Assembly (NCBI GenBank): GCA_030650605.1
Contig: JAUSDP010000070.1
Location: forward strand, 1-57,838
DNA: 57,838 nucleotides
Direction of reading: 5' to 3'
From: a bacterium
GTDB taxonomy: Bacteria; Patescibacteriota; Minisyncoccia; Phycocordibacterales; Zambryskibacteraceae
In this document: positions 5,526-52,150 of the stretch, in pieces
How positions within the stretch are numbered: the first letter of the stretch is position 1
Layout of the letters: every line of letters begins with the position of its first letter
Position numbers and translations under genes: made by a program
Notes under the pieces: generated by a model
Told to the model about the DNA's origin: nothing
Databases searched by the model: none
Seen by the model: only the letters and a program-made list of their open reading frames with translations

Positions 5526-6392
5526 ATGAAAACATTACGTGAATACTTGGCGTGGGCAGAAGAAAATCAAGTTGCGATAGGGCATTTTAATATTTCAGAT
5601 TCAGAAGGATTCAAGGCCGTGGTTGAAGGAGCTAAGGACATGTCTGCGCAGGCAGGACTCAATGTTCCAGTAATCATCGGAGTTTCCGAAGGAGAGAGAG
5701 ATTTCATCGGACTTGAAGAAGTAGTTTCCCTAGTAAAAACAGCTCGAACTAATGATCTTCCTATATTTATCAATGCTGACCACACTTATTCTGTAGAAAA
5801 AGCGAAGCTTGCTATTGACGCAGGAGTGGACAGTGTCATTATTGACGAAGTAGAAAAAACTCTGGAAGAGAATATCAAATTAACTACAGAAGTTGTCAAA
5901 TATGCTCGCTCAAAAAACTCTGAAGTTTTGATCGAAGGAGAACTCGGATTTATTGGTAAATCATCTAAATTACTCGATGCCGTGCCAATTGGCGTCTCGG
6001 AAAAAACACAAACTAATCCTCAAGAGGCAGCTAGATTTGTTAAAGAGACTGGTATTGATCTTTTAGCACCATCAGTCGGTAATATACACGGTATCGTCAA
6101 GACTGGTGAGCCTAGACTAAATATTGAGCGTATTAAGGCTATCAGAGAAGCAGTTAGAGTACCTTTAGTATTACACGGCGGTTCGGGAAACAAGGATGAG
6201 GAATTTCTTGAAGCAATAAAGGCTGGTATCAGAATCATCCATATTAATACTGAATTGAGAATCGCTTACAAAGAAGGTATAGAAGAGGGGATCAGATCAG
6301 GTGAAATAGCACCTTACAAATTCTTAGCTGAAGGTGTAGAAGAAATGAAAAAAGTAGTGCGTGATCGACTAAAATTATTTAATAGGATATGA
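5526..6392 (+). CDS. fba: Class II fructose-bisphosphate aldolase
   Basis: ADH, EGELG, GNIHG, LVLHGGSG and INTE motifs; start at ATG 5526. Confidence 0.9.
   Translation: MKTLREYLAWAEENQVAIGHFNISDSEGFKAVVEGAKDMSAQAGLNVPVIIGVSEGERDFIGLEEVVSLVKTARTNDLPIFINADHTYSVEKAKLAIDAGVDSVIIDEVEKTLEENIKLTTEVVKYARSKNSEVLIEGELGFIGKSSKLLDAVPIGVSEKTQTNPQEAARFVKETGIDLLAPSVGNIHGIVKTGEPRLNIERIKAIREAVRVPLVLHGGSGNKDEEFLEAIKAGIRIIHINTELRIAYKEGIEEGIRSGEIAPYKFLAEGVEEMKKVVRDRLKLFNRI
5639..5656 (+). repeat. Hairpin element family B, in-frame in fba (MSAQAG)
   Basis: CATGTCTGCGCAGGCAGG; related to 22668-22688. Confidence 0.7.
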
Positions 6393-8038
6393 ATGCGAGA
6401 GATGATATAAAGCAATTTTTTAAAGGCGAAGTTTTAGACGATGAGATAACACTCAAGACATACTCACGAGATGCAAGTCTTTTTAAAGTTAAACCTGAGC
6501 TAGTAGTTTTTCCAAAGGATGTTGAAGACTTGAAAGCCTTGGTCAAGTGGGTAACGGAGAATCCTGGACATTCGATAACTATTCGAGCAGCTGGTTCGGA
6601 TATGACCGGCGGACCATTAAGTGAGTCCATAGTTGCCAATGTTACTAAACATTTAAACCGGATTGGGATAATAGAAGGTAATGAAATAACTACTGAGCCG
6701 GGTGTGTTTTATCGTGATTTCGAGAAAAAAACACTTGAGAAAAACCTTATCCTACCCTGCTTTCCAGCATCCAAGAATCTCTGCGCTCTCGGTGGTATGA
6801 TTTCCAATAACTGTGCCGGGGAAAGAACTCTACGTTACGGTAAGATGGAAAATTATGTCTTAGAATCTAAAGTAATTCTATCAGATGGTCAAGAATATAT
6901 AGTCAAACCTCTCAACAAAACGGAACTTGAAACTAAAATAGCTCAAGCAGATTTTGAGGGAGAAGTTTATAATAAAATAAATGAATTACTGATTTCTAAT
7001 GACGAATTAATTAAGAAGGCAAAACCTAATGTCTCAAAGAATTCTGCAGGATATTATTTGTGGAATATAAAAAAAGATGAAATTTTTGATCTCAATAAAC
7101 TCCTAGTCGGCTCGCAGGGCACACTCGGCATAGTGACTGAAATGAAGCTTAAATTAGTACCAGAGAAAAAATATCATGATATGGTGGCACTTTTCTTCAA
7201 ATCATGGGAAGAATTACCTCAAGCGGTAAACGCTATTTTACTTTATGATCCAGAGAGTCTAGAGACATTTGATAAAGACACTTTAAAACTTGGCATTCAC
7301 TTCATGCCGGAGATTGCCAAGAAAACTGGGAGCAATTTCTTATCCTTTGCTATGCAATTTATTCCGGAAGCTATTATCGGTATAGAAATGCATGGCCTGC
7401 CAGAACTGATTGTGCTAGTTGAGATATCAGAAAATACGGAAGAAGAGGTAAAGGCCAAGGTCAAAAATATAGTTGAAGCAATCAAACCTTTTAAAGTCTG
7501 GTCCCGAGTAGTGGAGAAGGATTCGGAGGAAGAGAAGTTTTGGGTCATGCGTCGTGAGTCATTTAATCTCCTACGACAACATGTGAAAGAAAAGAGAACG
7601 GCCCCCTTTATTGACGACTTCTGTATTCTGCCAGACAAAATACCAGAGTTTCTGCCTAGAGCACTAAAGATTCTTAGCGATCATGGTATAGAGACAAATA
7701 TTGCCGGTCATGCTGGCAATGGCAATTACCACATCATTCCACTGATGGACTTAAGAGAAGAAAGTGAGCGAAACAAGATCACTATTGTTGCCGATAAATT
7801 TTATGACCTTGTGGCAGAATATGGTGGCTCAATCACCGCTGAACATAATGACGGTATTATCCGCACTCCGTATTTGAACAAAATGTATAGCTCGCAAGTG
7901 CTAGAACTTTTTAAAAAAACTAAAGAAATCTTCGATCCTCTCAATATTTTTAACCCCGGCAAGAAAGTCCCTTCGACAGGCTCAGGACAAGTAAGCGGAA
8001 CTTTAGAGTACCTTGAATCTCACATAGCTATTGAATAA
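6389..8038 (+). CDS. FAD-binding oxidoreductase (GlcD/D-lactate dehydrogenase-like)
   Basis: GSQGTLG, GHAGNGNYH, AEHNDG and FNPGK motifs. Confidence 0.9.
   Translation: MNARDDIKQFFKGEVLDDEITLKTYSRDASLFKVKPELVVFPKDVEDLKALVKWVTENPGHSITIRAAGSDMTGGPLSESIVANVTKHLNRIGIIEGNEITTEPGVFYRDFEKKTLEKNLILPCFPASKNLCALGGMISNNCAGERTLRYGKMENYVLESKVILSDGQEYIVKPLNKTELETKIAQADFEGEVYNKINELLISNDELIKKAKPNVSKNSAGYYLWNIKKDEIFDLNKLLVGSQGTLGIVTEMKLKLVPEKKYHDMVALFFKSWEELPQAVNAILLYDPESLETFDKDTLKLGIHFMPEIAKKTGSNFLSFAMQFIPEAIIGIEMHGLPELIVLVEISENTEEEVKAKVKNIVEAIKPFKVWSRVVEKDSEEEKFWVMRRESFNLLRQHVKEKRTAPFIDDFCILPDKIPEFLPRALKILSDHGIETNIAGHAGNGNYHIIPLMDLREESERNKITIVADKFYDLVAEYGGSITAEHNDGIIRTPYLNKMYSSQVLELFKKTKEIFDPLNIFNPGKKVPSTGSGQVSGTLEYLESHIAIE
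7969..7991 (+). repeat. Element family A, in-frame (PSTGSGQ)
   Basis: CCCTTCGACAGGCTCAGGACAAG; 21/23 identical to 30625-30647. Confidence 0.85.
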
Positions 8039-8456: not shown

Positions 8457-8477
8457 ACATGTTTCGTAACTCCCACC

Positions 8478-8510
8478 GCGGGGCCCATCAGTGGCCCCGC
8501 TTTCATTTTC
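8478..8510 (+). terminator. Intrinsic terminator
   Basis: GCGGGGCC/GGCCCCGC stem followed by a T-rich tail. Confidence 0.75.
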
Positions 8511-8535
8511 ATTATTATTCAGGTAAAATACGAAT

Positions 8536-9198
8536 ATGCTTACCTTGAAGGCAGAAATACGGGATAAACAGACCAAATTGGAATCTATAAGAAAAGCGGG
8601 AAGAATTCCTGCAGTCTTTTACGGTAAAAAGGAAGCATCTACCACGATTTCTATTCCTAAAATTGATTTTTTGAAAGTATGGAAAGAAGCGGGAACATCG
8701 AGTGTAGTTAATCTAGAAACCCCAGAAGGTGATAAAGAAAGCCTCATACAAGATGTAGATTTAGATCCCGTCACAGGCACTCCTCGTCATGCAGATTTTT
8801 ACATCTTTGAAAAGGGTCATAAAGTTGAGGTTGAATTACCTCTAGAATTCATCGGAATTTCTCCGGCTATAAAGGATCTAGGCGGTATGCTTGTGAAGGT
8901 CCTCCACGAAGTAAAGGTAGAAGCCATGCCGAAGGATTTACCACACAACATTAAAATAGATATAAGTTCTCTGGCCAGTTTCGGTGACCAAATTTTGGCC
9001 CGTAATATTGTTTTGCCTAATGGAGTAACACTTCTTGCTAGTCCTGAAGAGGTAGTAGCTACGATCTCAGCACCTCGTGAAGAAAAAGAGGAAGTAGCAC
9101 CAGTAGATCTTTCAGCTATAGAAGTTGAAAAGAAGGGCAAGGAAGAGACTACAGAAACTAATGAAAGCGACACAAAAAAAGAAACGCCTCCAGCTTAA
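8536..9198 (+). CDS. rplY: 50S ribosomal protein L25/Ctc
   Basis: RKAGRIPAVFYG and HADFY motifs; Ctc C-domain. Confidence 0.95.
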   Translation: MLTLKAEIRDKQTKLESIRKAGRIPAVFYGKKEASTTISIPKIDFLKVWKEAGTSSVVNLETPEGDKESLIQDVDLDPVTGTPRHADFYIFEKGHKVEVELPLEFIGISPAIKDLGGMLVKVLHEVKVEAMPKDLPHNIKIDISSLASFGDQILARNIVLPNGVTLLASPEEVVATISAPREEKEEVAPVDLSAIEVEKKGKEETTETNESDTKKETPPA

Positions 9199-12978: not shown

Positions 12979-13424
12979 CACCCGTAGTTATCTTTAGTAT
13001 CTCTGGTCTAGCAATGATACTGCTTGTAACGACTAAAAAATTAGGAGAAGGAAGAAAAAAGTGTTTCTTTATTTTAAACATTATATCGAGAGGGGATATT
13101 CATATTCGGAGATTTTATCATCACATAATTTATTATTATTCTGTAGGTAAAGAACAAATATTGTTTCTTATAAAAAAACAGATTCCTATACACTCAAAGA
13201 ATGCTTTTAATAAATTGCTTACGTTCTTGAAAGAAAAAAAGGGACAATATATTGTCAGTATGCGGGATTCAAGATTATTGAGGAAACAGGATGGTATTTC
13301 TGAATTCTTTAAAAATATATCCGAAATTAAAAAGGAAAATGGGGAAATACATGATGTTTGTGAAAATGCCAGCCCGAACGACTGTTCGGTCGAGCTGGGT
13401 TCTCAAGATGATAAAAAAGAGTAA
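12975..13424 (+). CDS. Hypothetical membrane-anchored protein
   Basis: N-terminal hydrophobic segment; start overlaps the tsf stop. Confidence 0.6.
   Translation: MTPVVIFSISGLAMILLVTTKKLGEGRKKCFFILNIISRGDIHIRRFYHHIIYYYSVGKEQILFLIKKQIPIHSKNAFNKLLTFLKEKKGQYIVSMRDSRLLRKQDGISEFFKNISEIKKENGEIHDVCENASPNDCSVELGSQDDKKE
13369..13398 (+). repeat. Hairpin element family D, in-frame
   Basis: CCAGCCCGAACGACTGTTCGGTCGAGCTGG; related to 50295-50330. Confidence 0.75.
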
Positions 13425-22377: not shown

Positions 22378-22794
22378 ATGTTTATTGGCGAGTACACACA
22401 TACAGTTGATGAAAAGAGTCGCTTCTCTTTACCTGTTAAATTTCGTAAGGAGCTTGGTAAAAAAGTAGTTGTAACTCGCGGTAAAGATCATTGTCTCTTT
22501 CTCTATCCCCACAAAACATGGATTTCCATTTCGGAAGAAGTGAGAAAACTTGGCCATGTAGAAAGTGACCATCGCTATGCACGATTTACTTTCTCTGGTG
22601 CATCCGAAATCGAGATCGATTCTATAGGTAGGATTCTCATCCCAGAATTCTTGCGAGAGTTTGCAGACCTGCCTGCCGGCGAGGCGGGTTTGAAGAATCC
22701 AATAATCATCACTGGCGTCCACGATAGGGTGGAAATCTGGAATGCCTCGAGTTGGTCGACTTATAGAAAAAGGCTTGAATCAGAGTATGCATAA
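22378..22794 (+). CDS. mraZ: Transcriptional regulator MraZ
   Basis: MFIGEYTHTVDEKSR, DSIGRILIP, RVEIW. Confidence 0.95.
   Translation: MFIGEYTHTVDEKSRFSLPVKFRKELGKKVVVTRGKDHCLFLYPHKTWISISEEVRKLGHVESDHRYARFTFSGASEIEIDSIGRILIPEFLREFADLPAGEAGLKNPIIITGVHDRVEIWNASSWSTYRKRLESEYA
22668..22688 (+). repeat. Hairpin element family B, in-frame in mraZ (LPAGEAG)
   Basis: CCTGCCTGCCGGCGAGGCGGG, 21 nt. Confidence 0.8.
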
Positions 22795-25711: not shown

Positions 25712-25735
25712 CTTGCCCTGAGCGAAGTCGAAGGG
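25712..25735 (-). repeat. Element family A, abutting the pseudo-tRNA 5' end
   Basis: Reverse complement CCCTTCGACTTCGCTCAGGGCAAG. Confidence 0.8.
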
Positions 25736-25816
25736 CCTCATCGTTCCCGATTTCCTTTCAGGAAATCGAGGATCCGCGATTCCGATTAGATAATCGGAAT
25801 CGGGACTAACGGTAAG
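25734..25816 (+). pseudogene. 5' fragment of tRNA-Glu interrupted by a 61-nt family E double hairpin (25745-25805)
   Basis: Removing 25745-25805 gives GGCCTCATCGTCTAACGGTAAG; first 16 nt identical to the tRNA at 26156. Confidence 0.8.
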
Positions 25817-26086: not shown

Positions 26087-26157
26087 GTCCCGTCCTCGAT
26101 TAAAAATCGGGACGAGGACCCTCGATTTTATAGAAACTGCATTTGATAAAATCGGGG
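26087..26157. repeat. Family E hairpin cluster abutting tRNA-Glu
   Basis: CCTCGATT...AATCGGG arms occur twice. Confidence 0.75.
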
Positions 26158-30484: not shown

Positions 30485-30886
30485 ATGGTTGAGACTGAAA
30501 CAGTCAAGAAAGTATCTAAAAAAGCCCCTACGAAGCCCACTAAGGCTCTTTATGCTGTCTTTGCTACAGGAGGCAAACAATACCGCGTGGTAGTAGGGGA
30601 TAGGGTTAAAATTGAGAAACTCGGCCCTTCGACAAACTCAGGACAAGTGAAGTATAAAGAGGGAGACAAACTCACTTTCGATAAAGTGCTTCTAGTAGAC
30701 GACGGAGCAAGCGAAGCCACTATCGGCACACCATTCATCAAAGGCGCGGAAGTAAAAGCCACATTAAGCAAAATTGCTCGATACAAAACAATTGATGTTA
30801 TCAAATACAAACAAAAATCCCGCTACTTTAAGAAATATGGTCATCGCCAACCTTACTTTGAAATCAAAATAGATTCGATTAAATAG
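30485..30886 (+). CDS. rplU: 50S ribosomal protein L21
   Basis: YAVFATGGKQYRV, GHRQPY. Confidence 0.95.
   Translation: MVETETVKKVSKKAPTKPTKALYAVFATGGKQYRVVVGDRVKIEKLGPSTNSGQVKYKEGDKLTFDKVLLVDDGASEATIGTPFIKGAEVKATLSKIARYKTIDVIKYKQKSRYFKKYGHRQPYFEIKIDSIK
30625..30647 (+). repeat. Element family A, in-frame in rplU (PSTNSGQ)
   Basis: CCCTTCGACAAACTCAGGACAAG. Confidence 0.85.
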
Positions 30887-33391: not shown

Positions 33392-33408
33392 AGACCAATA
33401 GTAGCAAC

Positions 33409-33428
33409 CCCCGCCATGGCGGGGCAAG
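33409..33428 (+). repeat. Hairpin element family C (intergenic)
   Basis: CCCCGCCATGGCGGGGCAAG. Confidence 0.8.
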
Positions 33429-33892: not shown

Positions 33893-35289
33893 TAGGATTT
33901 AGAAATTTTCTGACCCGAAATGGTATCTTCAACTATAAAACCGAGATTCTTTATTTGTTCGCGAAGTTGGTCAGATTTGGAATAATTACCAATCACACGA
34001 GCAGATTCGCGATCTTTAAGTAATTGCTCAACTTCTTTTGGAATGTTCTTTACTTCAAATTCATTATTCTCAAGATTTAACCCGAGCACTTTATCAAAAT
34101 CCAATAGAGTTGTTCTTTTATCAGCAGGGGAGACACTTTCGTCTTTGACAAGTTTCCAGACTACGGCGAGTGCCTCTGGAGTATTGAGGTCGTTTTCTAT
34201 CGCTTCTTTAAACTCTTCCGCATAGCTATTATCAAGGTCCAACCTTGATATATTCTTCATATCAATCTGCCACGTTGACACGGCCTCCTTGAGCTTTCGA
34301 TACGCATTTTGGGCAGCTTCGAGCGCTTCCCAAGAAAAATTAACAGGCGTTCTGTAATGAGCCATGAGTAGAAAATATCGATAGGCAAGGGGAGAGAAAC
34401 CCTTTTCGATCAGAGTATTAAGAGTAATTTGATTGCCTAACGATTTAGCCATTTTACCCTCTGTTACTGTAATGAATTCATTATGCAACCAGAAGTTAGC
34501 TAACGGAGTATCATACGCTGCTTCTGATTGGGCAATTTCGTTGTTGTGATGAACGGGAATGTGATCCATGCCACCAGTATGAATATCGAACGGTTGAGCA
34601 AGAAGTTCTCGCGACATAGCCGAACACTCTATATGCCAACCCGGGAAACCCATACCCCACGGACTCTCAAAACCCAAATGACCGTCTTTTGATAATTTCC
34701 AAAGCACGAAATCGCGATCACTCTTTTTCCCATCTGTTTTTAGACGCGCAGATCCTTCGGACAGGGGAGTGAGACCTCCCAATTTACCGTAATCCGTTAG
34801 TTTGCCAGTATCAAAATATATTCCGTCCTGAATTTTGTATGTATAACCTTTTTCTTCAAGTTGACGGATTAGATCTATCTCCTGTTTCAAATAATCTGTA
34901 GCCCGAGGAAAATGAAGTGGCTTTCTAACATTGAGTGTATCTAGATCGTCCTTAAACACCTTCTCATATTTATCTGTAAGCTGTCTAAGACCATCGAGAG
35001 TTAATGGTAATCCATCACGTTTAAGACCCTTAACCATTTTATCATCACCTGTATCGGCATCAGAAGTAAGATGACCTATGTCTGTAATATTTATCACTTG
35101 TCTGACCTCAAAATCTAAATATTCAAATGTACGACGCAAAATATCGGCAAAAATATATGATCTAAGATTACCAATATGGGCGTAATCATAAACCGTCGGA
35201 CCACAGTGATACATCCCAACTTCACCAGATTTAATCGGTTTAAATTCTTCGAGTCTTCCTGTGAGGGTGTTATGGAGTTTTATGTTCAC
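33892..35289 (-). CDS. cysS: Cysteine-tRNA ligase
   Basis: CGPTVY, HIGN, PGWHIEC, KMAKS; start at GTG 35289. Confidence 0.95.
   Translation of the reverse strand: MNIKLHNTLTGRLEEFKPIKSGEVGMYHCGPTVYDYAHIGNLRSYIFADILRRTFEYLDFEVRQVINITDIGHLTSDADTGDDKMVKGLKRDGLPLTLDGLRQLTDKYEKVFKDDLDTLNVRKPLHFPRATDYLKQEIDLIRQLEEKGYTYKIQDGIYFDTGKLTDYGKLGGLTPLSEGSARLKTDGKKSDRDFVLWKLSKDGHLGFESPWGMGFPGWHIECSAMSRELLAQPFDIHTGGMDHIPVHHNNEIAQSEAAYDTPLANFWLHNEFITVTEGKMAKSLGNQITLNTLIEKGFSPLAYRYFLLMAHYRTPVNFSWEALEAAQNAYRKLKEAVSTWQIDMKNISRLDLDNSYAEEFKEAIENDLNTPEALAVVWKLVKDESVSPADKRTTLLDFDKVLGLNLENNEFEVKNIPKEVEQLLKDRESARVIGNYSKSDQLREQIKNLGFIVEDTISGQKISKS
34230..34250. repeat. Hairpin element family F, in-frame in cysS (ISRLDLD)
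   Basis: TATCAAGGT-CCA-ACCTTGATA, 21 nt. Confidence 0.7.
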
Positions 35290-37565: not shown

Positions 37566-37571
37566 GTTTCA

Positions 37572-37612
37572 CCCTTCGATAAACTCAGGGTACCATGAGC
37601 AAGGTGGAATGG
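37572..37612 (+). repeat. Family A element plus degenerate inverted partner
   Basis: CCCTTCGATAAACTCAGGGTACCATGAGCAAGGTGGAATGG. Confidence 0.65.
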
Positions 37613-37730: not shown

Positions 37731-37778
37731 CCCCTCGATTCACCCCGCCTATTTCAGGCGGGGCAAGCTCGGGGCAAG
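37731..37778 (+). repeat. Family C element nested inside a family A-like element
   Basis: CCCCTCGATTCA[CCCCGCCTATTTCAGGCGGGG]CAAGCTCGGGGCAAG. Confidence 0.7.
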
Positions 37779-37830
37779 GGGGAGCTCCTTACCGTCATGG
37801 CAACCCTTAATTAAAAACTAATCTACTGCT

Positions 37831-39622: not shown

Positions 39623-39646
39623 CCCTTCAACAGAGTTCAGGGCAAG
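39623..39646 (+). repeat. Element family A, abutting the M23 gene stop codon
   Basis: CCCTTCAACAGAGTTCAGGGCAAG. Confidence 0.7.
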
Positions 39647-45122: not shown

Positions 45123-46993
45123 GATAGTTTTTCTGGCTGAATAAAGACATTGTACCAAATAGCGAGCATGAGAAGGAGATAAATCTTTCTTGAATTATCA
45201 ACTTTTCGCGAAGTATGATTGTCTATGAGATTCCTAATGTAGGCAATATTCATGTGTTTTTGGATATATGGATTATCTATAATAGTGTTATAAATATCTT
45301 TTCTTTCACTCGTAAACCAATTTCTAATAGGCGTTGGAAAACCAAGTTTCTTTCTTGTACGTACTGACTCCGGTAAAACTTTTTTAAACGCCTCACGTAG
45401 AAGATATTTAGTGCTACCATCTCTCCATTTGAATCGGTCAGGGAGAGTGGCAGCGAGACGAGCCACTTCCATATCAAGAAACGGTACCCTCAATTCAAGC
45501 GAATGCGCCATGGTCATTTTATCGGCCTTGGCTAAGATATCTCCAACCAGCCAAGTGTTAATGTCAATAAATTGCATCATAGTAGAGTCACTTAAACCTT
45601 TTGCCCTTCTGTATAGTTGCCCTAACCCTGTGTCCAAGTCAGCCTTTGACAGGTGAGTTTTCCATAATTTATCTATTTCATCTTGTTTGAAGATAGAAGC
45701 ATTGCCTATATACCAATCTTCAAGATGCTGACTTGCTCTTTTGGCGTAATTTTTACCTCTAAAATCAAAAGGTAGATTGATAATAAAGTTTAAGATAGTA
45801 TTTGGTATCCAAGTAAGCCATCGACGAGCAAACGGTTCAAGGTAAATATTATAACCGCCAAAAAGTTCGTCCGCACCTTCGCCCGAGAGTACTACCTTGA
45901 CGTGTTTAGCTGCTTCTCGAGCAAGAAAATACAGTCCAAGAGCTGACGGATCAGCCACTGGCTCATCAAAATACCAAACTACTTTAGGTAAAACCTTGAA
46001 ATATTCATCGGCACTGATAGTGATTTCGTGATGAAGAGTTTGAAGCGGCAGAGCGGTTTCTAGAGCTTCCCTACCTTCACTTAGGGATTCAAATCCAACA
46101 GTAAAAGTCTGAATCTTTTGTCCCGATTTCGTTTCCGAAATCGAGGATCCTCGATTAGTTTCAACTAATCGGGACATTAGAGAAACGATAATACTTGAAT
46201 CTATGCCACCTGAAAGAAAAGAACCAACAGCAACATCAGCAATCATGTGGTGAGAAACAGAATCCTTCATTATTGCAAAAATTTCTTTCGCTATTTTACT
46301 TTCATTAAGAGAATCATTTTGCTTGAATTCAAACCGCCAATACTTTTTCATCTCCACTCTGCCAGTTTTTAAATCTATCTTCATATAATGGGCAGGCGGG
46401 AGTTTAAAAACATTTTTAAAAAAAGTTTCTTCCAAAGGATTATATTGAAATGAAAGGTAGTTAAAAACTGCCGCATCATTAACTTCTGGATTGAATTCCG
46501 CAAGTGGAATAAAACTCTTTATTTCGGACGAGAAGGCAGCAATCTTAGCGTCTTTAGCCCAATAATAGAGGGGTTTGATGCCAAAAAAATCTCTAACAAG
46601 AATGAGTTCAGTTTTCTCTCTATCATAAATCGCGAAAGCAAACATACCACGCAGACGAGAAAATTCATTGAGACCATAGACTTCAAACATACGCAAAACA
46701 ACTTCGGTGTCACTCTCTGTCTTAAATTCTTGTCCTGCCTGCAGGAGTTCAGCGCGTAATTCCTTATAATTATAAATTTCTCCGTTGAAGAAAATAAGAA
46801 ATCTGCCATCAGACGAAAAGAGTGGTTGTCTACCTCCGGCAATATCAATAATTGAAAGTCGTCTCATACCTAGAGCAAGATACTCATCTGCAAAAAAACC
46901 AGTATCATCTGGTCCACGATGACGAATGGCATCCGTCATTTTTTGAATGTCATCTTTCTCTATCGGATTAATTAGCCCTGTTATGCCACACAT
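45119..46993 (-). CDS. asnB: Glutamine-dependent amidotransferase, AsnB/LtsA family
   Basis: MCGI, HRGPD, SGGIDS, SGEGADE and RVPFLD motifs. Confidence 0.92.
   Translation of the reverse strand: MCGITGLINPIEKDDIQKMTDAIRHRGPDDTGFFADEYLALGMRRLSIIDIAGGRQPLFSSDGRFLIFFNGEIYNYKELRAELLQAGQEFKTESDTEVVLRMFEVYGLNEFSRLRGMFAFAIYDREKTELILVRDFFGIKPLYYWAKDAKIAAFSSEIKSFIPLAEFNPEVNDAAVFNYLSFQYNPLEETFFKNVFKLPPAHYMKIDLKTGRVEMKKYWRFEFKQNDSLNESKIAKEIFAIMKDSVSHHMIADVAVGSFLSGGIDSSIIVSLMSRLVETNRGSSISETKSGQKIQTFTVGFESLSEGREALETALPLQTLHHEITISADEYFKVLPKVVWYFDEPVADPSALGLYFLAREAAKHVKVVLSGEGADELFGGYNIYLEPFARRWLTWIPNTILNFIINLPFDFRGKNYAKRASQHLEDWYIGNASIFKQDEIDKLWKTHLSKADLDTGLGQLYRRAKGLSDSTMMQFIDINTWLVGDILAKADKMTMAHSLELRVPFLDMEVARLAATLPDRFKWRDGSTKYLLREAFKKVLPESVRTRKKLGFPTPIRNWFTSERKDIYNTIIDNPYIQKHMNIAYIRNLIDNHTSRKVDNSRKIYLLLMLAIWYNVFIQPEKLS
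45631..45651. repeat. Degenerate family F element, in-frame in asnB (LSKADLD)
   Basis: TGTCCAAGTCAGCCTTTGACA imperfect palindrome, 21 nt. Confidence 0.5.
46121..46174. repeat. Family E double hairpin, in-frame in asnB (18 aa SRLVETNRGSSISETKSG)
   Basis: TCCCGATTTC...GAAATCGAGGATCCTCGATT...AATCGGGA; same architecture as 25745-25805. Confidence 0.9.
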
Positions 46994-46997
46994 ACAT

Positions 46998-47966
46998 TTA
47001 GTTGGCCTGCCCCGCCATGGCTGGGTTACTTATATACTCCATCACAGCATCAATAAGTGTGCGGGCATCATTAAATCTACCCTCTCCAGTGGAACCAAGT
47101 ATAGATATAATAATCGGACGACCAAGTTCCGGGTCAAAAACAAATATCAAGTTACCACCAGCAGTATCAGTAAAACCAGTCTTGGAAGCTACAAGTCCCG
47201 GAATTTCGGAAATTGTATCATTGGTATTTCTAGCAACATGAAGGTTATTATCCAGAGATCGGAATGTTGTCACGGCCTCTTTTGTAGCCGCGAAGAGTGC
47301 AGGATGATGAGTGAGAATATATTCTAAGAGCGTACTCATATCTCTCGCAGTGCCGTAAGCACCACCTTTTATATTTGATTCATCCAATCCGGTCTCGTTC
47401 CAGAAATAGGTATTCTTGAGACCAAGTTCTCGGGCTTTATTATTCATTTCACCAACAAAATCATTGATAATTTCTTCTGAGGTAGCATCCGCTTTAGAGA
47501 GAGCGCCGAGAGAAAGAGCCACTGCCCGCATGCCATCATTTGAAGATGTAAGTAAAGAGAAATCGAGAAGATCCTTGAGTGTCCACTTTTCATTTTTAAA
47601 TAAACCGCTATCTCCTTCCGCTCGCAAGGACTCTTCACTAATAGTCACAGTACCATATAAAGGACTTAAATCTTCGGCCACTAAAGCTGACATAATTTTT
47701 GTCAAAGAAGCCAGCGAAAGACGAGTATTCTCATTTTTGGCAAATAAAACGGTTTTAGTTCTAACATCATAGACATAGACCGCTTTGGCTCTGAGCGCTA
47801 TTTTAGAAAATAATTTGGAGGCAGTTTCCGTAGGCACGGATGTATCCCCTCTCTCTATCTTCTTATCAAAAATAAAAGAAACTGTAAGTAGAACTAAAAG
47901 CGCTGCGCCAAGAATAAGAAAAAGTCTTATTTCAGAATTGTGAACTGTGGTAAATTGATCATCCAT
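46998..47966 (-). CDS. D-alanyl-D-alanine carboxypeptidase (S11)
   Basis: SLTK, SSN and KTG motifs; C-terminus PAMAGQ comes from a family C element (47006-47025). Confidence 0.9.
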   Translation of the reverse strand: MDDQFTTVHNSEIRLFLILGAALLVLLTVSFIFDKKIERGDTSVPTETASKLFSKIALRAKAVYVYDVRTKTVLFAKNENTRLSLASLTKIMSALVAEDLSPLYGTVTISEESLRAEGDSGLFKNEKWTLKDLLDFSLLTSSNDGMRAVALSLGALSKADATSEEIINDFVGEMNNKARELGLKNTYFWNETGLDESNIKGGAYGTARDMSTLLEYILTHHPALFAATKEAVTTFRSLDNNLHVARNTNDTISEIPGLVASKTGFTDTAGGNLIFVFDPELGRPIIISILGSTGEGRFNDARTLIDAVMEYISNPAMAGQAN

Positions 47967-47972: not shown

Positions 47973-48524
47973 TTAACTCGAATTTGTCGAGGTGTCTATT
48001 TGTGAGGTTTTTTCAAACTCTTCAATTTTCTTAAAAGCCGTTTGATATTCTGGTAAATCCTCACGACTAGTAATACCGAGATGTTGTAATAATTTAAGAG
48101 TGGCTTTATAGCTATAACTTCTTTCTATATCTTCGCCACGTGTAATAAGTCCACGAATCATGAGTGAACGAAGAATAAAGCTAGAATTAACTCCACGAAT
48201 ATGGTCAATTTCGCGACGGGAAATTGGACCCTTATAGAGAATAATTGCAAGAGTCTCAAGACTGGCACGGCTAAGTTCTCGAGAAAATTCTTCTTTTGTC
48301 AGATCTTCAATAAGTTTGCTGGCATCTGGATGGGTACCAAAACTTACGGATTCCCCATCAAAAACAACAACCACTCCCCTGTCTTTATAGAATTCCCTTA
48401 GATTCAAAAGTGTAGTTTTAATTATTTCAGATTTTTCTCCGGTTATTTTTGCCAATTCTGAAATCGAAACTGGTTCGTTTTTAAAAAACAATATTGCCTC
48501 TATTTTTGTTTCTAAACTAAGCAT
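47973..48524 (-). CDS. scpB: Segregation/condensation protein B
   Basis: IEAILF, LETLAII, RGVNS. Confidence 0.93.
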   Translation of the reverse strand: MLSLETKIEAILFFKNEPVSISELAKITGEKSEIIKTTLLNLREFYKDRGVVVVFDGESVSFGTHPDASKLIEDLTKEEFSRELSRASLETLAIILYKGPISRREIDHIRGVNSSFILRSLMIRGLITRGEDIERSYSYKATLKLLQHLGITSREDLPEYQTAFKKIEEFEKTSQIDTSTNSS

Positions 48525-49281
48525 AAATGGGTGTATGAACCGATTCACTTTCTATCTCGATATCTCCCCTGCCTTCCTGTGTTACTCGGATAGCACCACG
48601 CTTGATAAGTTCAAGCATAGCAAGAAAACCGACAATTATAGAAACCTTTTTTTCATAAGTTATAATACCCTTCTTAGTGCCTGACTTGCCAGATAAACCG
48701 TGGAAATCTTTGAAACTTATCTTACTTGCTTGAGAAATTCTCTCTGCCAATTTCTCGATCATTTCCTCAAGACTTATAACCTTTTTAACAATTATTTTAG
48801 GCAACATTTCTTTCTTCGGCAACGATTCTATCACGTTCTTAAGAGCCAAGAGAAGATTCTTCGTATTAGTTTGAGAGTCCGGTGAGAAGATTATCGTCTG
48901 ATTTTTCGACGGCATTTTCTCGAAGATGATTTTTTTACCAAAAATACTTTTGAGATACGAAGCGAGTTCCTCAACCTTGGCATATAGGGTGAGCCGATTC
49001 TCAAGATCATGGATGCTTTCTTCTTCCTCGTCCGTAAGTCGAATCATTGGCAGAAGCGATCTCGACTTGATTAGCATCAAGGTGGAAGCAACGACTATAA
49101 ATTCGGCTGACTCCCCTATCGGAAACTCTTCATGCTTATCGATATAACTTATAAAATCAACCGTAACTTGAGATAACGAAACATCATTGATAAAGAGTTT
49201 CCTTTTGGTTACTAAATCAAGAAGAAGGTCCAAAGGACCTTCAAAGACTTCCATTTTTACAGTATATAGTTGTCTTTCCAC
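48517..49281 (-). CDS. scpA: Segregation/condensation protein A
   Basis: FEGPLDLLL, KSRSLLP, FLAMLEL. Confidence 0.93.
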   Translation of the reverse strand: MERQLYTVKMEVFEGPLDLLLDLVTKRKLFINDVSLSQVTVDFISYIDKHEEFPIGESAEFIVVASTLMLIKSRSLLPMIRLTDEEEESIHDLENRLTLYAKVEELASYLKSIFGKKIIFEKMPSKNQTIIFSPDSQTNTKNLLLALKNVIESLPKKEMLPKIIVKKVISLEEMIEKLAERISQASKISFKDFHGLSGKSGTKKGIITYEKKVSIIVGFLAMLELIKRGAIRVTQEGRGDIEIESESVHTPIYA

Positions 49282-49299: not shown

Positions 49300-49884
49300 T
49301 TAAGCCACATTTTCAACCAAAATCTCTACAATCTCATCCCAAGAATACACTCTAGTAATAGGTGGTTTAACTTCACCTTGATTCCATGGCGCATCAAAGA
49401 GTAATGCGGGTATTCCCAAATTTGCCACATCTTCAACATTATGCAAAAAATCATCTACAAAAATTTCTATACCAAGTTCCTTACACACTTCTCCCTTTGA
49501 GCGTTTAGGACCATCTCCTTGATAATGATTTGTAAAATGAACTCCATCAAACATTTGAGGAAAATGTTTGTCTAGCCACTCCGATGTTCTGTCTTTTAAC
49601 TCTTCTGGCTTAGCGGTAATAACAAAAAGGTTATGATGTTGTTTCAGTTTTCTTATTCTTTCAACCGCCCCATCTACAGGCGGAGCATTCCAATGTGCAG
49701 AAGATGAGTAAAAATCAGACATTCTTTGTATTGCATCCTCTCTTGTACAATTCCACATTTCGCTTAATTCATATGACTGTCTATGCTTCCTCTCATGTTT
49801 TGTACCGTAGATCGTATTATAATACTGAAGAAGAACATCATTAAAATTTAATAAAACATCATCAAGATCAAAACCTACGGTCAT
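49300..49884 (-). CDS. HAD-family 5'(3')-deoxyribonucleotidase (NT5C-like)
   Basis: DLDDVL, ITA, FVDD and PWN motifs. Confidence 0.85.
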   Translation of the reverse strand: MTVGFDLDDVLLNFNDVLLQYYNTIYGTKHERKHRQSYELSEMWNCTREDAIQRMSDFYSSSAHWNAPPVDGAVERIRKLKQHHNLFVITAKPEELKDRTSEWLDKHFPQMFDGVHFTNHYQGDGPKRSKGEVCKELGIEIFVDDFLHNVEDVANLGIPALLFDAPWNQGEVKPPITRVYSWDEIVEILVENVA

Positions 49885-51155
49885 GGATTCAGTCTCTTAA
49901 CATCTCTTGGAATATAGGTAGCTTCGCGAACGTTCGGCAAGCCAAGAATTTTCATAATAAAGCGGCCCGGACCAATGCCCGCACCTCCATGTGGCGGACA
50001 ACCGTAGCGAAAGAAGTTTAAATAATCTTTTAATACTTCTAAGTCCATACCCTTTTCTTTCGCCTGTTTTTCAAGAATTTCTAGCCGATGTTCACGTTGG
50101 GCGAGTGTCGTCACTTCAATACCTCGGTATAAAAGATCCGCCCTACGAGACCTATCAGAATCTTCTTCTAATCTCATATGATAGAAAGCGCTCTTGGATT
50201 TATGATAATCGGTAATAAAGACAAATTCATGCTTCTGTTCTTTAAGAATATATTCCGAAATTGCGCGTTCTTCTTCAGGAGAAAGGTCATGTTCCCCGCC
50301 CGACTGAACTGCGTCAGTCGTTCGGGCGGGCTCTGGTGAAGAAATGCCCAGATTAGCTAGAATCTTCTTCGCTTCCAACATAGTCATTTTAGGAAAAGGC
50401 TGAACCGGTATAGAAATATTTAGATCTGGTAGAGCTTTCAATAATTGTTTGAATCCAGCAATAATCATTCCCTCTTCTGCATTCATGACATCGTGATGAT
50501 CTTTGATATAGGAAATCTCGAAGTCCCAACCTGTAAATTCCGTCAGGTGACGTGTAGTAAAAGATGGCTCGGCACGAAATACGGGAGATACCATGAAAAC
50601 TTTTTCAAAACCAGCCGCCATAGCCATTTGTTTGTAGAATTGTGGCGACTGTGCCAAATATGCCTTGCGGTCAAAATAATCAACTTCGAAAACTTCCGCG
50701 CCAGACTCTGATGGTGTAGACATTAGAGCCGGTGGATAGAGTTGGATAAAATTGTTCTCATCCCAGAATTTACGCCAACCTTTCTCAAATTCTGTCCAGA
50801 CTGTGAAAATCTTAGCTTTCTCAGGCTTCCTTAGGTCAAGCCAGCGATAGTCAAAACGTATTGGAGCTTCGGTCTCTTCTCCACTCTTAATTACCACTGG
50901 TATGGGCAGTTCTGGTTCAGCTCTCGAGAGTATTTCAATCTTAGTTGGATGCATTTCTCGACCACCCGGTGCCTGCGATGCATCCACCATCTCCCCAGTC
51001 GCCTTAATAACCGATTCTAACGAAAGATTTTTGGCTGTTTCGAATTCAGGGTTGTCAGCCATAACCACAAGCTGAGTCAGACCTTTGATATTACGTACAA
51101 CTATAAAAATTATTTTTGACTGGATACGTAGAGCGTGTACAAATCCTTGAATCAT
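49881..51155 (-). CDS. aspS: Aspartate-tRNA ligase, archaeal/non-discriminating type
   Basis: 424 aa, OB fold, LAQSPQFYKQ, FRAE, PPHGG, PRD. Confidence 0.9.
   Translation of the reverse strand: MIQGFVHALRIQSKIIFIVVRNIKGLTQLVVMADNPEFETAKNLSLESVIKATGEMVDASQAPGGREMHPTKIEILSRAEPELPIPVVIKSGEETEAPIRFDYRWLDLRKPEKAKIFTVWTEFEKGWRKFWDENNFIQLYPPALMSTPSESGAEVFEVDYFDRKAYLAQSPQFYKQMAMAAGFEKVFMVSPVFRAEPSFTTRHLTEFTGWDFEISYIKDHHDVMNAEEGMIIAGFKQLLKALPDLNISIPVQPFPKMTMLEAKKILANLGISSPEPARTTDAVQSGGEHDLSPEEERAISEYILKEQKHEFVFITDYHKSKSAFYHMRLEEDSDRSRRADLLYRGIEVTTLAQREHRLEILEKQAKEKGMDLEVLKDYLNFFRYGCPPHGGAGIGPGRFIMKILGLPNVREATYIPRDVKRLNP
50295..50330 (-). repeat. Family D element, in-frame in aspS (PARTTDAVQSGG)
   Basis: CCCGCCCGAACGACTGACGCAGTTCAGTCGGGCGGG, 36 nt. 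Confidence 0.9.
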
Positions 51156-52150
51156 GATAGTTTTAATCCAACTTTATCCCTCACTATTTCCATCTTCTTC
51201 TCCACTCTTTCGCGGGCCACTCTACCACCCTCTCGCAATACTTCAAGAACTGTATCTTTATCTTTTTCCAGTTTTTGTCTCTTCTCACGAATTGGCCTGA
51301 TAAAATCTTGCAGATCGTCTATTAACATCTCTTTAAGAATTTTGTACTTTCCTTTATTTTCTTTATACAAATTATCGAGCAATTCTTTATCTTTGAGCAG
51401 AGCATGAATAGCATAGACATTTTCCGGATGTTCACCCGAAGAGTCTGTCACAATATTCATCACAACTTTCTCGATATCATCATCAGTAGCAAAGAGAGAA
51501 ATAGTATTACCATAGCTCTTTGACATCTTCCTACCATCAAGCCCGGGAACAGTAGCCACATCTTCCAAAATAAGAGGTTCGGGTAGTTTAAATGTTTCAC
51601 TTGCCCCGTCCTTGGCGGGGCCAAAAATGCGATTAAATTTCTCTGCTGTATCGCGAGCAATCTCAACGTGCTGTTTCTGATCTTGTCCAACCGGTACCAC
51701 ATCAGCATCTTGAATGAGAATATCAGCTGCCATAAGCAACGGATAATCAAATAATCCAACGTTGGGTTCTTTACCATTAGCTACGGCATCTTTATAAGCA
51801 TGCGCTCGCATTAGGTAAGGTACGGTTGTTAGACAATTAAAAATCCATGCAAGCTCTGTCACTTGTGGCACATCGGATTGTTTATAGATACAAACTTTTT
51901 TAGGATCGAGTCCGATAGCTAGATAATCAAGAACGACATTAATGGTATTGTTCACCAACTCTTCCCTATTCTGGACTGTAGTGATGGCGTGTAAATCTGC
52001 GATAAAAATGTAACTCTCATAAACATCTTGCAACTCGACAAACCGCTTCATAGCACCAAAGTAGTTCCCAATATGTGGCTTACCTGTGGGTTTAACTCCA
52101 GATAACAGTATTTTCCTTGTCTTGAGCGAAGTCGAAAGATTGTCTGACAT
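51152..52150 (-). CDS. trpS: Tryptophan-tRNA ligase
   Basis: HIGN, ADLHA, VPVGQDQ and KMSKS motifs. Confidence 0.95.
   Translation of the reverse strand: MSDNLSTSLKTRKILLSGVKPTGKPHIGNYFGAMKRFVELQDVYESYIFIADLHAITTVQNREELVNNTINVVLDYLAIGLDPKKVCIYKQSDVPQVTELAWIFNCLTTVPYLMRAHAYKDAVANGKEPNVGLFDYPLLMAADILIQDADVVPVGQDQKQHVEIARDTAEKFNRIFGPAKDGASETFKLPEPLILEDVATVPGLDGRKMSKSYGNTISLFATDDDIEKVVMNIVTDSSGEHPENVYAIHALLKDKELLDNLYKENKGKYKILKEMLIDDLQDFIRPIREKRQKLEKDKDTVLEVLREGGRVARERVEKKMEIVRDKVGLKLS
51600..51620 (-). repeat. Family C element, in-frame in trpS (PAKDGAS)
   Basis: CCCCGCCAAGGACGGGGCAAG, 21 nt. Confidence 0.85.
52116..52139 (-). repeat. Family A element, in-frame at the trpS N-terminus (LSTSLKTR)
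   Basis: TCTTTCGACTTCGCTCAAGACAAG; compare 25712-25735. Confidence 0.8.

What the first reader, a model, noticed from the sequence alone, without database searches (positions are those of the whole stretch)
5639..52139. Six families of tiny hairpin elements inserted in-frame into conserved proteins
Seen: GC-rich 18-54 nt elements recur in unrelated genes. Family A (CCCTTCGAC..CTCAGGRCAAG) is in the FAD oxidoreductase, rplU and the trpS N-terminus, with intergenic copies at 25712, 37572 and 39623. Family B is in fba and mraZ. Family C is in trpS and the S11 peptidase tail, with intergenic copies at 33409 and 37743. Family D is in aspS and ORF 12975, with an intergenic copy at 14087. Family E is in asnB and at 25745 and 26087. 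Family F is in cysS and asnB. Internal coding copies of B-F measure 18, 21, 21, 21, 21, 30, 36 and 54 nt, all multiples of 3; intergenic copies (20, 29, 61 nt) are not. They add peptides such as PSTNSGQ, LPAGEAG, PAKDGAS and PARTTDAVQSGG at places where the family consensus, as I recall it, has none. Known analogue: Rickettsia palindromic elements, which are much longer. Inference: active miniature mobile elements, filtered by selection for frame, that add loops to ribosomal proteins and tRNA synthetases.
Basis: partly seen in the sequence, partly recalled or inferred. Interest (0 to 1): 0.9.

Follow-up and report, generated by a model that had tools for sequence, protein, structure and literature searches.

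The report
Tiny palindromic repeats inserted inside genes
A very small groundwater bacterium carries several families of 18-54-base palindromic repeats that have landed, in frame, inside essential genes and add short loops to their proteins; this is a miniature version of a phenomenon already known from Rickettsia and from REP repeats.

Summary
Codon-level alignment with four same-genus genomes shows clean, lineage-specific insertions of 15-54 nt (all 3n) in fba, an FAD oxidase, ORF 12975, mraZ, rplU, cysS, asnB, aspS and trpS. There is also an N-terminal insert in trpS and a C-terminal tail on the S11 peptidase. The inserts belong to repeat families found across the genome (A 33, B 14, C 21 copies), the genus, the phylum and, for family A, many phyla. 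Contigs from the source sample's run and a second run of that study break exactly at the edges of the 36-nt aspS insert. A degenerate tRNA-Gln copy carries two exact 18-nt family-B units with no target duplication. Frame use is strongly biased (10 of 11 B copies read LPAQAG), which argues that the inserts are translated.

I read them as REP-like non-autonomous micro-elements. RAYT-like Y1 transposases are present (3 in this genome, 32 of 37 in the genus), but none is flanked by families A-F, so the mobiliser is inferred, not shown. In-frame intragenic REPs and RPEs are already published (PMC3733652), so this is a new variant, not a new kind. Family F and the mod-3 contrast were not reproduced, and family A does not fold stably.

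The parts
5640..5657 (+). 18-nt family B palindrome (degenerate copy) inserted in class II fructose-bisphosphate aldolase; adds MSAQAG
   Evidence: Absent from G004, G002 and G019 orthologues. Pfam F_bP_aldolase. 14 genome copies.
7967..7990 (+). 24-nt family A insert in FAD-linked oxidase; adds VPSTGSGQ
   Evidence: Absent from G004 and G019. Pfam.
13368..13397 (+). 30-nt family D hairpin insert in ORF 12975-13424; adds ASPNDCSVEL
   Evidence: Absent from G004 and G002. DNA fold -10.5 kcal/mol, z -4.0.
22669..22689 (+). 21-nt B-like hairpin insert in mraZ; adds LPAGEAG
   Evidence: Absent from 4 of 4 congeners. Fold z -1.9.
25712..25735 (-). Intergenic family A copy
   Evidence: Exact consensus match.
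25746..25798 (+). Intergenic family E double hairpin, upstream of a small GIY-YIG ORF (25828-26073)
26087..26127 (+). Intergenic E-like hairpin, downstream of the GIY-YIG ORF and next to tRNA-Glu (26156-26228)
30626..30646 (+). 21-nt family A insert in rplU (L21); adds PSTNSGQ
   Evidence: Present only in G000 among G000 plus 29 relatives. It lies in a loop between strands 40-43 and 62-65, with pLDDT below 50 at residues 50-52.
33407..33428 (+). Family C hairpin in the leader upstream of dnaB (on the minus strand); shared with G004
   Evidence: the true start is downstream, and G004 has the same translated motif.
34237..34251 (-). 15-nt hairpin insert in cysS; adds ISRLD
   Evidence: Absent from 4 of 4 congeners. 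Fold z -3.5. Pfam tRNA-synt_1e.
37572..37594 (+). Intergenic family A copy
37743..37789 (+). Intergenic family C hairpin with repeated GGGGCAAG tail
39623..39646 (+). Intergenic family A copy
46121..46174 (-). 54-nt family E double hairpin in asnB; adds SRLVETNRGSSISETKSG between LM and QKI
   Evidence: fold -17.9 kcal/mol, z -6.5. I re-read the MAFFT alignment by eye: the relatives read LMQKI without a break. Other contigs of the metagenome break at 46121.
47005..47024 (-). Degenerate family C copy forming the C-terminal tail (PAMAGQAN and the stop) of the S11 D-Ala-D-Ala carboxypeptidase
   Evidence: Relatives end 6-8 residues earlier. Pfam. It does not fold stably (z +1.0).
48676..48696 (-). 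21-nt G000-specific insert in scpA (LSGKSGT); family unclear and not a hairpin
   Evidence: Fold z -0.08.
50295..50330 (-). 36-nt family D hairpin in aspS (non-discriminating AspRS); adds PARTTDAVQSGG
   Evidence: Absent from 3 of 3 congeners. Loose ends lie at exactly 50295 and 50330 in 25 and 24 contigs of run X1 and 12 and 19 of X2. Fold z -3.45. Shared by 5 of 120 homologues.
51599..51619 (-). 21-nt family C hairpin in trpS; adds PAKDGAS
   Evidence: Absent from 3 of 3 congeners. Fold z -2.5. The same peptide sits at another site in an AspRS homologue, P0113.
52116..52139 (-). 24-nt family A copy just after the trpS start codon; adds about 8 N-terminal residues
   Evidence: Relatives start MA(D/E)KK directly.

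Best explanation
The window carries members of several families of non-autonomous, REP-like micro-elements. They are GC-rich palindromes or hairpins with unit lengths of about 18, 21-24, 30, 36 and 54 nt.

Shown: copies are dispersed in this genome, in its genus (relatives are named Candidatus Zambryskibacteria, Patescibacteria), in other Patescibacteria and, for family A, in many phyla. New copies arise by precise insertion without target-site duplication.

Inferred: inside genes only those copies survive that keep the frame, carry no stop and fall in tolerant loops or termini. There they are translated into short, mostly small or hydrophilic peptides.

Family A belongs to a wider superfamily defined by three features: a conserved 11-12-nt loop (TCGAY-N3-4-CTC), a 4-bp stem of free sequence, and a 3' YAAR (mostly CAAG) tail. 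This is the signature of a shape-plus-motif site read by a protein.

Inferred, not shown: the most likely mobiliser is a single-strand hairpin-recognising HUH enzyme of the RAYT / IS200-like Y1 kind, which this genus encodes in many copies. It would act in trans. I give about 0.35 to that sub-claim alone.
For: 1. Clean codon-level indels of 18, 24, 30, 21, 21, 36 (54 on re-reading), 21, 36 and 21 nt in conserved genes, plus a 15-nt insert in cysS shown by protein alignment, all against 2-4 syntenic congeners.
2. In 78 alignments, G000 has 23 private inserts of 4 aa or more. The relatives have 3-7, and several of theirs belong to the same families at other sites.
3. L21 of two other species carries different hairpin inserts.
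4. Census of G000: A 33, B 14, C 21, D 8 and E 13 copies.
5. Elements are lacking on the two largest contigs, which are probably foreign.
6. The unit edges of the aspS and asnB elements are reproduced by many other metagenome contigs.
7. A degenerate tandem copy of tRNA-Gln differs from the intact gene by two exact 18-nt B units and shows no duplication.
8. Frame bias: 10 of 11 genic B copies read LPAQAG (binomial p 1.3e-4). 10 of 21 genic A copies read PSTxSGQ.
9. Stem covariation: 35 of 50 hits have 4 of 4 Watson-Crick pairs across at least 11 stem types. The mean is 3.42 against 1.72 in shuffles (maximum 2.34 of 2000).
10. Y1_Tnp genes: 3 in G000, each flanked by its own hairpins. They occur in 32 of 37 genus genomes, up to 9 per genome. 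The best NCBIfam match is REP-associated tyrosine transposase, below its cut-off.
11. Y1_Tnp count against family A count: rho 0.54, n 37.
12. In the phylum sample, 30 of 44 A-positive genomes have Y1_Tnp, against 150 of 356 A-negative genomes (odds ratio 2.9, p 0.0012).
Against: - None of the 15 Y1_Tnp loci inspected is flanked by families A-F. They are flanked by other hairpins. Only the C107 gene has a family A copy 134 nt away.
- 14 of 44 A-positive phylum genomes have no Y1_Tnp hit at E<=1e-5, including G093 with 6 copies at 99% completeness. One genome with 6 B copies (G116) also lacks it.
- The correlations are among kin and could reflect general tolerance of repeats.
- No empty allele was seen in the contigs laid, so current activity is not shown.
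- The aspS insert may be old: it is shared down to 79% identity, and one clade is not rejected (AU p 0.56).
- Family A does not fold stably as naked DNA.
- There is no protein or RNA evidence that the inserts are translated.
- The ORF calls behind the census are crude. At least two 'in ORF' B copies actually lie in the tRNA pseudogene.
Confidence: 0.7

Rival explanations
1. The elements are mobile, but they are moved by something other than RAYT-like Y1 transposases. Candidates are the small GIY-YIG nucleases that sit beside tRNA genes and hairpins, another nuclease or recombinase, or uptake and recombination of foreign DNA that carries the motif.
For: - No Y1_Tnp locus is flanked by A-F.
- 14 of 44 A-positive genomes lack Y1_Tnp.
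- G000 has 11 small GIY-YIG ORFs. Four lie within 150 nt of an element, against 6% for random windows (p 0.003).
Against: - GIY-YIG ORFs border intergenic space, where elements persist anyway, and 7 of 11 have no element within 150 nt.
- The window's GIY-YIG gave only a weak sub-threshold match to a group I intron endonuclease family.
- No candidate enzyme is tied to any family.
Confidence: 0.2
2. The motifs are primarily functional sites kept by selection. They could be protein-binding DNA sites, or RNA hairpins that affect transcript stability or termination. On this reading their presence inside genes is a side effect, not selfish spread.
For: - The loop and tail are conserved while the stems covary.
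- The same family A motif occurs in more than 120 contigs of many phyla, where chance expects about 1 (my own arithmetic for 20 fixed bases in 596 Gb).
- The family C copy upstream of dnaB is kept in both G000 and G004.
- F8 copies are 7 of 7 co-oriented with their flanking genes.
- In the aspS insert only the loop-encoded residues vary among 5 homologues.
Against: - Genic copies sit at non-homologous sites in unrelated proteins and are missing from orthologues.
- Intergenic family A copies show no orientation bias, 3 against 4.
- No Rfam family matches.
- Distribution among genomes is patchy: 45 of 401 for A and 10 of 401 for B.
Confidence: 0.08
3. The inserts are not translated. They are removed from the mRNA or skipped by the ribosome, as with programmed bypassing.
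For: Several inserts are strong hairpins (z -3.5 to -6.5). The analogy with bypassed GC-rich inserts in yeast mitochondria is recalled from memory and not checked.
Against: - Every genic insert measured is 3n and free of stops.
- Frame use is biased to benign peptides (10 of 11 for B). Bypassing would not require that bias.
- Family A inserts have no stable structure.
Confidence: 0.02

Closest known systems
Intragenic GTAG- and CGTC-tagged REPs (Di Nocera et al. 2013, PMC3733652; abstract and passages read)
   Same: Both are short (20-40 bp) palindromic repeats in multi-copy families. Some lie entirely within ORFs of known proteins, including tRNA synthetases. They encode extra residues and are thought to sit in loops or linkers. 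[quoted passage not shown]
   Different: No GTAG or CGTC tag is present here. Families A and C end in CAAG and family B has no tag. Units go down to 18 nt and are mostly single rather than dimers. The host is a roughly 0.5 Mb Patescibacterium, and many inserts lie in a few tens of kb. That paper's list of intragenic REPs is in a supplement I could not see.
REP / BIME elements with RAYT (TnpA-REP) transposases (PMC3333891 and PMC2817692, search listing only; PMC6006769, passages read)
   Same: Both involve small hairpins with a conserved tetranucleotide next to the stem. Y1 HUH genes are flanked by their own hairpins, the REPtron layout seen at C49, C72 and C107 and in 12 relatives' loci. Copies are dispersed.
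   Different: REPs are described as largely extragenic and species-specific. Here many copies are genic, and family A is shared across phyla. Families A-F do not flank the Y1 genes.
Rickettsia palindromic elements (RPE) (review PMC10969869, passages read)
   Same: Both are palindromic repeats inserted in frame into unrelated housekeeping genes, and several families exist in a reduced genome.
   Different: The classic RPEs are about 150 bp and encode a conserved peptide module. The elements here are 3 to 8 times shorter, in an unrelated phylum, with unrelated sequences.
MITEs (PMC10969869, passages read)
   Same: Both are non-autonomous, multi-copy and sometimes fuse in frame with ORFs.
   Different: There are no terminal inverted repeats bounding an internal region. 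There is no target-site duplication. The elements are far below the usual MITE size.

Membership tests
REP elements (REPtron system) | Short imperfect palindrome present in many copies | tested here: met
   8-33 copies per family in about 0.7 Mb of element-bearing contigs. Families D and E, the trpS copy of C and the cysS insert fold significantly. Family A and the degenerate copies of B (fba) and C (S11 tail) do not.
REP elements (REPtron system) | Conserved 5' GT[AG]G (or CGTC) tetranucleotide at the foot of the hairpin | tested here: not met
   The flanks of the 14 B copies vary. Families A, C and F25 instead end in (G)CAAG.
REP elements (REPtron system) | Copies flank a RAYT gene | tested here: not met
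   Across 15 Y1_Tnp loci, the flanking hairpins are P3 or other types and never A-F.
REP elements (REPtron system) | Predominantly extragenic location | tested here: not met
   By crude ORF calls, 21 of 33 A, 14 of 14 B (2 of them really in a tRNA pseudogene) and 12 of 21 C copies lie in ORFs.
RAYT / TnpA-REP proteins (for the three Y1 genes of G000) | Match to the curated family above its cut-off | tested here: inconclusive
   Pfam Y1_Tnp is above its cut-off (30.6-44.2 bits against 23). NCBIfam REP_Tyr_transpos scores 36.6-43.6 bits against a cut-off of 80.
Rickettsia palindromic elements | 100-150 bp unit of an RPE family found in Rickettsia | tested here: not met
   Units here are 18-54 nt. 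The host's relatives are named Candidatus Zambryskibacteria.
MITE | Terminal inverted repeats plus target-site duplication | tested here: not met
   The filled and empty tRNA-Gln pair shows exact 18-nt insertions with no duplicated flank.
Described structured RNA families (Rfam 15) | Covariance-model match | tested here: not met
   Only two tRNAs and two sub-threshold chance hits were found in the window at E<=1.

The most novel reading that the evidence does not exclude
Family A and its kin form a bacteria-wide superfamily of the smallest mobile DNA units yet seen. Each unit is about 23 nt: a conserved TCGAY-N3-4-CTC loop, a 4-bp stem of free sequence and a CAAG tail. The superfamily would have its own, still unidentified, hairpin-reading mobilisation machinery. 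In Patescibacteria these units, together with the 18-, 36- and 54-nt palindromes, would be a continuing source of loop insertions in ribosomal proteins and aminoacyl-tRNA synthetases.
Probability: 0.25. Interest if true: 0.85.

Novelty: new variant of a known kind. Interest (0 to 1): 0.6.

Why it matters
The finding shows that essential, slowly evolving proteins of an ultra-small bacterium (L21, TrpRS, AspRS, CysRS, MraZ, aldolase) tolerate repeated insertion of 5-18 residue peptides that come from selfish or semi-selfish DNA.

It extends in-frame palindrome insertion from Rickettsia and a few REP-rich Proteobacteria to Patescibacteria, and down to 18-nt units.

It also points to a sequence motif shared across phyla. 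I could not find that motif in Rfam, nor as a text string in the paper library.

Practically, such inserts distort gene-length comparisons, can seed spurious low-complexity 'hypothetical proteins', and give natural markers for strain typing and for permissive loop sites in conserved proteins.

Tried and rejected
- De novo family finding with 11-mers occurring 4 or more times was swamped by chance words. The 13-mer version was usable but noisy with AT-rich words.
- A test for a CAAG 'tag' after any 5-bp hairpin showed no genome-wide enrichment (19.7 per 1000 against 17-23 for 14 other tetramers). The test is too blunt for 4-bp stems.
- My first covariation script had the wrong geometry and gave 2 hits. 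It was corrected.
- The literature search with peptide words returned only noise from one word.
- A search for RAYT or REPIN together with Patescibacteria found no paper holding both.
- Motif strings were found in 0 papers.
- The look-up of sequencing runs found only the probable source sample holding the stretch. Laying contigs of 3 runs showed no empty allele and no clean skip of an element. Contigs drop rare variants, so this is not evidence against polymorphism.
- The quick tree of 120 AspRS homologues scattered the 5 insert-bearing rows (5 changes, equal to the shuffle mean). The constrained tree was 10.9 log-likelihood units better, with AU p 0.56, so I make no claim of repeated gain or loss.
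- The AlphaFold model of AspRS was poor (mean pLDDT 58.7, with nine low segments). The low confidence at residues 276-288 says little.
- The GIY-YIG link is weak.
- Orientation bias of family A exists only in coding copies, 13 against 4, and not in intergenic ones, 3 against 4. I attribute it to frame selection and not to strand-specific insertion.
- Complex prediction, fold search, the protein atlas and the search of protein representatives were not used.
Additional file 3 of PMC3733652, which lists intragenic REPs, may bear on novelty.

Full report
WHAT THE WINDOW IS

- The window is contig C25 of a 1.14-Mb, 110-contig bin. It has about 39% G+C.
- Homologues of its aspS are named Candidatus Zambryskibacteria, Parcubacteria or Patescibacteria by their sources.
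- The 36 other same-genus genomes held are listed as only 0.4-0.6 Mb (rounded figures).
- The window is collinear with G004:C1 (about 21-95 kb) and with stretches of G002, G017 and G019. This allowed an unbiased gene-by-gene comparison.
- Pfam names the genes in question:

| Coordinates | Strand | Gene |
|---|---|---|
| 5460-6392 | + | fba |
| 6389-8038 | + | FAD-linked oxidase |
| 22378-22794 | + | mraZ |
| 30485-30886 | + | rplU |
| 31970-33484 | - | dnaB |
| 33892-35532 | - | cysS |
| 45119-46993 | - | asnB |
| 46998-47966 | - | S11 peptidase |
| 48517-49281 | - | scpA |
| 49881-51155 | - | class II aaRS, named aspartate-tRNA(Asn) ligase by sources |
| 51152-52150 | - | trpS |
| 52165-53550 | - | PIF1-like helicase |

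CHECKING THE OBSERVATION

I aligned 52 window ORFs to their orthologues and listed every segment present in only one genome, without reference to the finding.

- G000 has 13 private inserts of 3 aa or more. G004 has 5, and G002, G017 and G019 have 4 each.
- One is unclear (scpA). Four are ordinary (10055-10072, 37125-37157, 37329-37343, 45626-45634).
- With cysS restored to the gene set, a ninth hairpin insert appears at 34237-34251.
- Codon-level alignments show clean indels with conserved flanks. One example is aspS, where CCA GAG [36 nt] GAA CAT stands against CCG GAA GAA CAC in G004.
- MAFFT placed the asnB gap badly. Read by eye, the relatives run LMQKI without a break, while G000 has 18 residues (54 nt, 46121-46174) between LM and QKI.
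- The trpS N-terminus has about 8 extra residues that hold the family A copy. The S11 peptidase ends in an 8-residue tail supplied by a degenerate family C copy.
- For rplU, the 7-residue insert is present in G000 only, among G000 plus 29 relatives.

THE INSERTS ARE REPEATS, NOT ONE-OFFS

- A census of G000 with family patterns gives these copy numbers:

| Family | Copies |
|---|---|
| A | 33 |
| B | 14 |
| C | 21 |
| D | 8 |
| E | 13 |
| P1 (mostly intergenic) | 28 arms |
| P3 (mostly intergenic) | 11 |
| F8 (mostly intergenic) | 8 |

- The two largest contigs, C57 (165 kb) and C84 (81 kb), have no A or B copies. Together with the doubled bin size, this suggests they belong to another organism. 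They therefore act as an internal negative control.
- A strict family A pattern occurs in 26 of 37 genus genomes, with 0 hits of the reversed pattern. It occurs in 45 of 401 phylum genomes (43 of 320 genera) with 1 reversed hit.
- The exact 18-mer of family B occurs in 10 of 401 phylum genomes, usually in several copies (15, 7, 6, 6, 4, 3 and so on), with 0 reversed hits.
The titles listed include Chloroflexota, Acidobacteriota, Pseudomonadota, Planctomycetota, Bacteroidota, Verrucomicrobiota, a cyanobacterium and CPR groups, and a few cultured isolates. By my own arithmetic, chance expects about one hit in 596 Gb.
- The flanks of these hits are unrelated. In some alphaproteobacterial records the motif sits opposite an inverted partner. 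In one Pseudomonadota MAG, copies are nested inside copies.

UNIT BOUNDARIES AND MODE OF INSERTION

- Contigs of the source run and a sister run that match only part of the window have loose ends at exactly 50295 and 50330. This is seen in 25 and 24 contigs in X1 and in 12 and 19 in X2. Their flanks are diverse, with 0.39-0.47 agreement.
- These are the same edges as the aspS indel. The asnB element shows the same behaviour at 46120-46121 and 46155-46156.
- On contig C55, an intact tRNA-Gln(TTG) is followed by a degenerate tandem copy. The copy differs mainly by two exact 18-nt family B palindromes, one in the D-arm and one just after the anticodon, with no duplicated flank.
- Insertion is therefore precise, of fixed unit length, and without target-site duplication.

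STRUCTURE

- As naked DNA, the D and E elements, the trpS copy of C and the cysS insert fold far better than shuffles (z -2.5 to -6.5). The mraZ copy is marginal (z -1.9). The three family A copies, the degenerate fba copy and the S11 tail do not fold stably.
- Family A nevertheless has a real 4-bp stem. I anchored only on TCGAY-N3-4-CTC and a YAAR tail and searched 1.63 Mb (G000 plus the genus loci).
- This found 50 sites, of which 35 have 4 of 4 Watson-Crick pairs across at least 11 different stem sequences. The mean is 3.42 pairs against 1.72 in 2000 shuffles, whose maximum was 2.34.
- A conserved loop and tail with a free-sequence stem is what a protein-read hairpin looks like.
- No Rfam family matches.

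ARE THE INSERTS TRANSLATED?

- All genic inserts measured are 3n and free of stops.
- Family B, being a palindrome, has three possible frames. 10 of the 11 copies in plausible genes use the one that reads LPAQAG (p 1.3e-4).
- 10 of the 21 family A copies in ORFs use one of six frames, reading PSTxSGQ. Three more use the antisense frame reading (A)PSxVEG.
- Coding copies of A are co-oriented with the gene 13 to 4, while intergenic ones are 3 to 4. The bias therefore comes from the reading frame and not from the insertion strand.
- In the AlphaFold model of L21 (mean pLDDT 79), the insert (residues 48-54) lies in the loop between strands 40-43 and 62-65. It holds the only stretch with pLDDT below 50.
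- The AspRS model was too poor to use.
- There is no proteomic or transcript evidence.

THE MOD-3 CLAIM

- 3n is a condition of survival for any insert in an intact gene, so by itself it says little.
- It is more telling that the gene-dwelling families have fixed 3n units even outside genes: 18 nt in the tRNA pseudogene, and 36 nt in many contexts.
- P1, P3 and F8 are nearly all intergenic. F8 has 0 of 8 copies in ORFs. The P1 'ORF' copies lie at ORF ends.
- The family A core is 23 or 24 nt both inside ORFs (9 versus 12) and outside them (4 versus 8), yet its net insert is 21 or 24 nt. Its edges are therefore not fixed.

AGE AND ACTIVITY

- Relatives carry their own inserts of the same families at other sites. 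G019 has PSTELG in the orthologue of 8527-9195. G004 has a family C copy in another gene.
- L21 of G021 has a different hairpin in the same loop, and L21 of G024 has a 20-nt palindrome in its N-terminal tail. Insertion sites therefore turn over among the species of the genus.
- The aspS insert is shared by 5 of the 120 closest homologues (79-88% identity), with only the loop-encoded residues varying.
- A quick tree scatters these 5. A tree holding them together is 10.9 log-likelihood units better and is not rejected (AU p 0.56). One old gain suffices.
- No empty allele was seen, but only contigs could be laid.

MECHANISM

- G000 has three Y1_Tnp genes. Each is flanked on both sides by its own hairpin, which is the classic REPtron layout. 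Their best NCBIfam match is REP-associated tyrosine transposase, below the cut-off.
- The genus is rich in these genes: 32 of 37 genomes have them, up to 9 per genome.
- Y1 count correlates with family A count (rho 0.54, n 37).
- In 400 phylum genomes, 30 of 44 A-positive genomes against 150 of 356 A-negative genomes have Y1_Tnp (odds ratio 2.9, p 0.0012).
- Against this, in 15 Y1 loci the flanking hairpins are never A-F.
- In addition, 14 A-positive genomes have no Y1 hit, one of them with 6 copies at 99% completeness.
- A RAYT-like enzyme acting in trans is therefore my best guess (about 0.35), not a finding.
- Small GIY-YIG ORFs are a weaker alternative. There are 11 in G000, with 7 within 150 nt of a tRNA gene and 4 within 150 nt of an element.

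COMPARISON WITH WHAT IS KNOWN

- PMC3733652 (abstract and passages read) already reports short GTAG- and CGTC-tagged REPs lying wholly within genes of known function, tRNA synthetases among them. [quoted passage not shown]
- PMC10969869 (passages read) summarises RPEs of about 150 bp.
- PMC6006769 (passages read) describes REPs as species-specific and largely intergenic, with a tetranucleotide at the hairpin foot.
- The present elements share the size class and behaviour but fail the defining GTAG/CGTC tag and the RAYT-flanking test.
- They differ in four ways: in host (Patescibacteria), in minimal size (18 nt), in how many conserved genes they decorate over a short distance, and in the cross-phylum conservation of the family A motif.
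- I found no paper with both RAYT or REPIN and Patescibacteria, and none containing the motif strings. Supplements were not available.

VERDICT

The interpretation as miniature insertion elements that add loops is largely right. 'Active', family F and the mod-3 contrast are not established, and the kind of phenomenon is already in print. This is a new variant of a known kind, of moderate to high interest.

Noticed in passing
G000 contig C55:8716-8905 (outside the window): An intact tRNA-Gln(TTG) is followed by a degenerate tandem copy that ARAGORN does not call. The copy carries two exact 18-nt family B palindromes, one in the D-arm and one just after the anticodon. Small GIY-YIG ORFs lie on both sides (8460-8663 and 9029-9247).
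   Followed up: partly
window 25700-26230: A small GIY-YIG ORF (25828-26073) is flanked by family A and E hairpins. It lies between a 12-nt copy of the 5' end of tRNA-Glu (about 25735-25746) and the tRNA-Glu gene itself (26156-26228). The arrangement looks like a cassette inserted at the tRNA 5' end. Genome-wide, 7 of 11 such ORFs lie within 150 nt of a tRNA gene.
   Followed up: partly
whole bin G000: The bin is 1.14 Mb, while the 36 other same-genus genomes held are listed at 0.4-0.6 Mb (rounded). The largest contigs, C57 (165 kb, 44% GC) and C84 (81 kb), lack family A and B copies. They probably belong to another organism despite the 3.5% contamination estimate.
   Followed up: partly
window about 25000-38000: GC skew changes sign (positive up to about 24 kb, negative from about 26 kb). 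Gene orientation converges from the plus strand on the left to the minus strand on the right. This is consistent with a replication terminus inside the window.
   Followed up: no
window 39291-39368: A P1 element: two inverted 12-nt arms (TCCCGTTAGAAG) about 54 nt apart. The genome has 28 arms, mostly in pairs, and almost all are intergenic. It gave a spurious sub-threshold Rfam hit to a microRNA family.
   Followed up: partly
window 53641-55918: A duplicated module. Four copies of a 33-nt repeat lie at 53641, 53942, 55410 and 55738. A 91-nt repeat (54027-54117 and 55828-55918, 79% identical) brackets small ORFs.
   Followed up: no
L053 and L079 (a Pseudomonadota MAG); G105:C4:77252-77392; G413:C1:3899-3989: Family A copies are nested inside other copies, split between TCGA and CAAG (L053, L079). 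Other copies form 24-nt-period tandem arrays (the G105 and G413 stretches). This suggests self-targeting and in-frame 8-residue repeats in other lineages.
   Followed up: no
G000 contig C57:88036-88210: Eight tandem copies of a 22-nt unit containing CATCTGCCGAAGCTCACAC, on the probably foreign contig.
   Followed up: no
G000 contigs; family F8: F8 is an AT-rich relative of family A (loop TCGAY-N3-CTC, stem TAGT/ACTA, tail CAAG or TAAA). It is strictly intergenic (0 of 8 in ORFs). 7 of 7 scorable copies are co-oriented with the flanking genes, which hints at an RNA-level role.
   Followed up: partly
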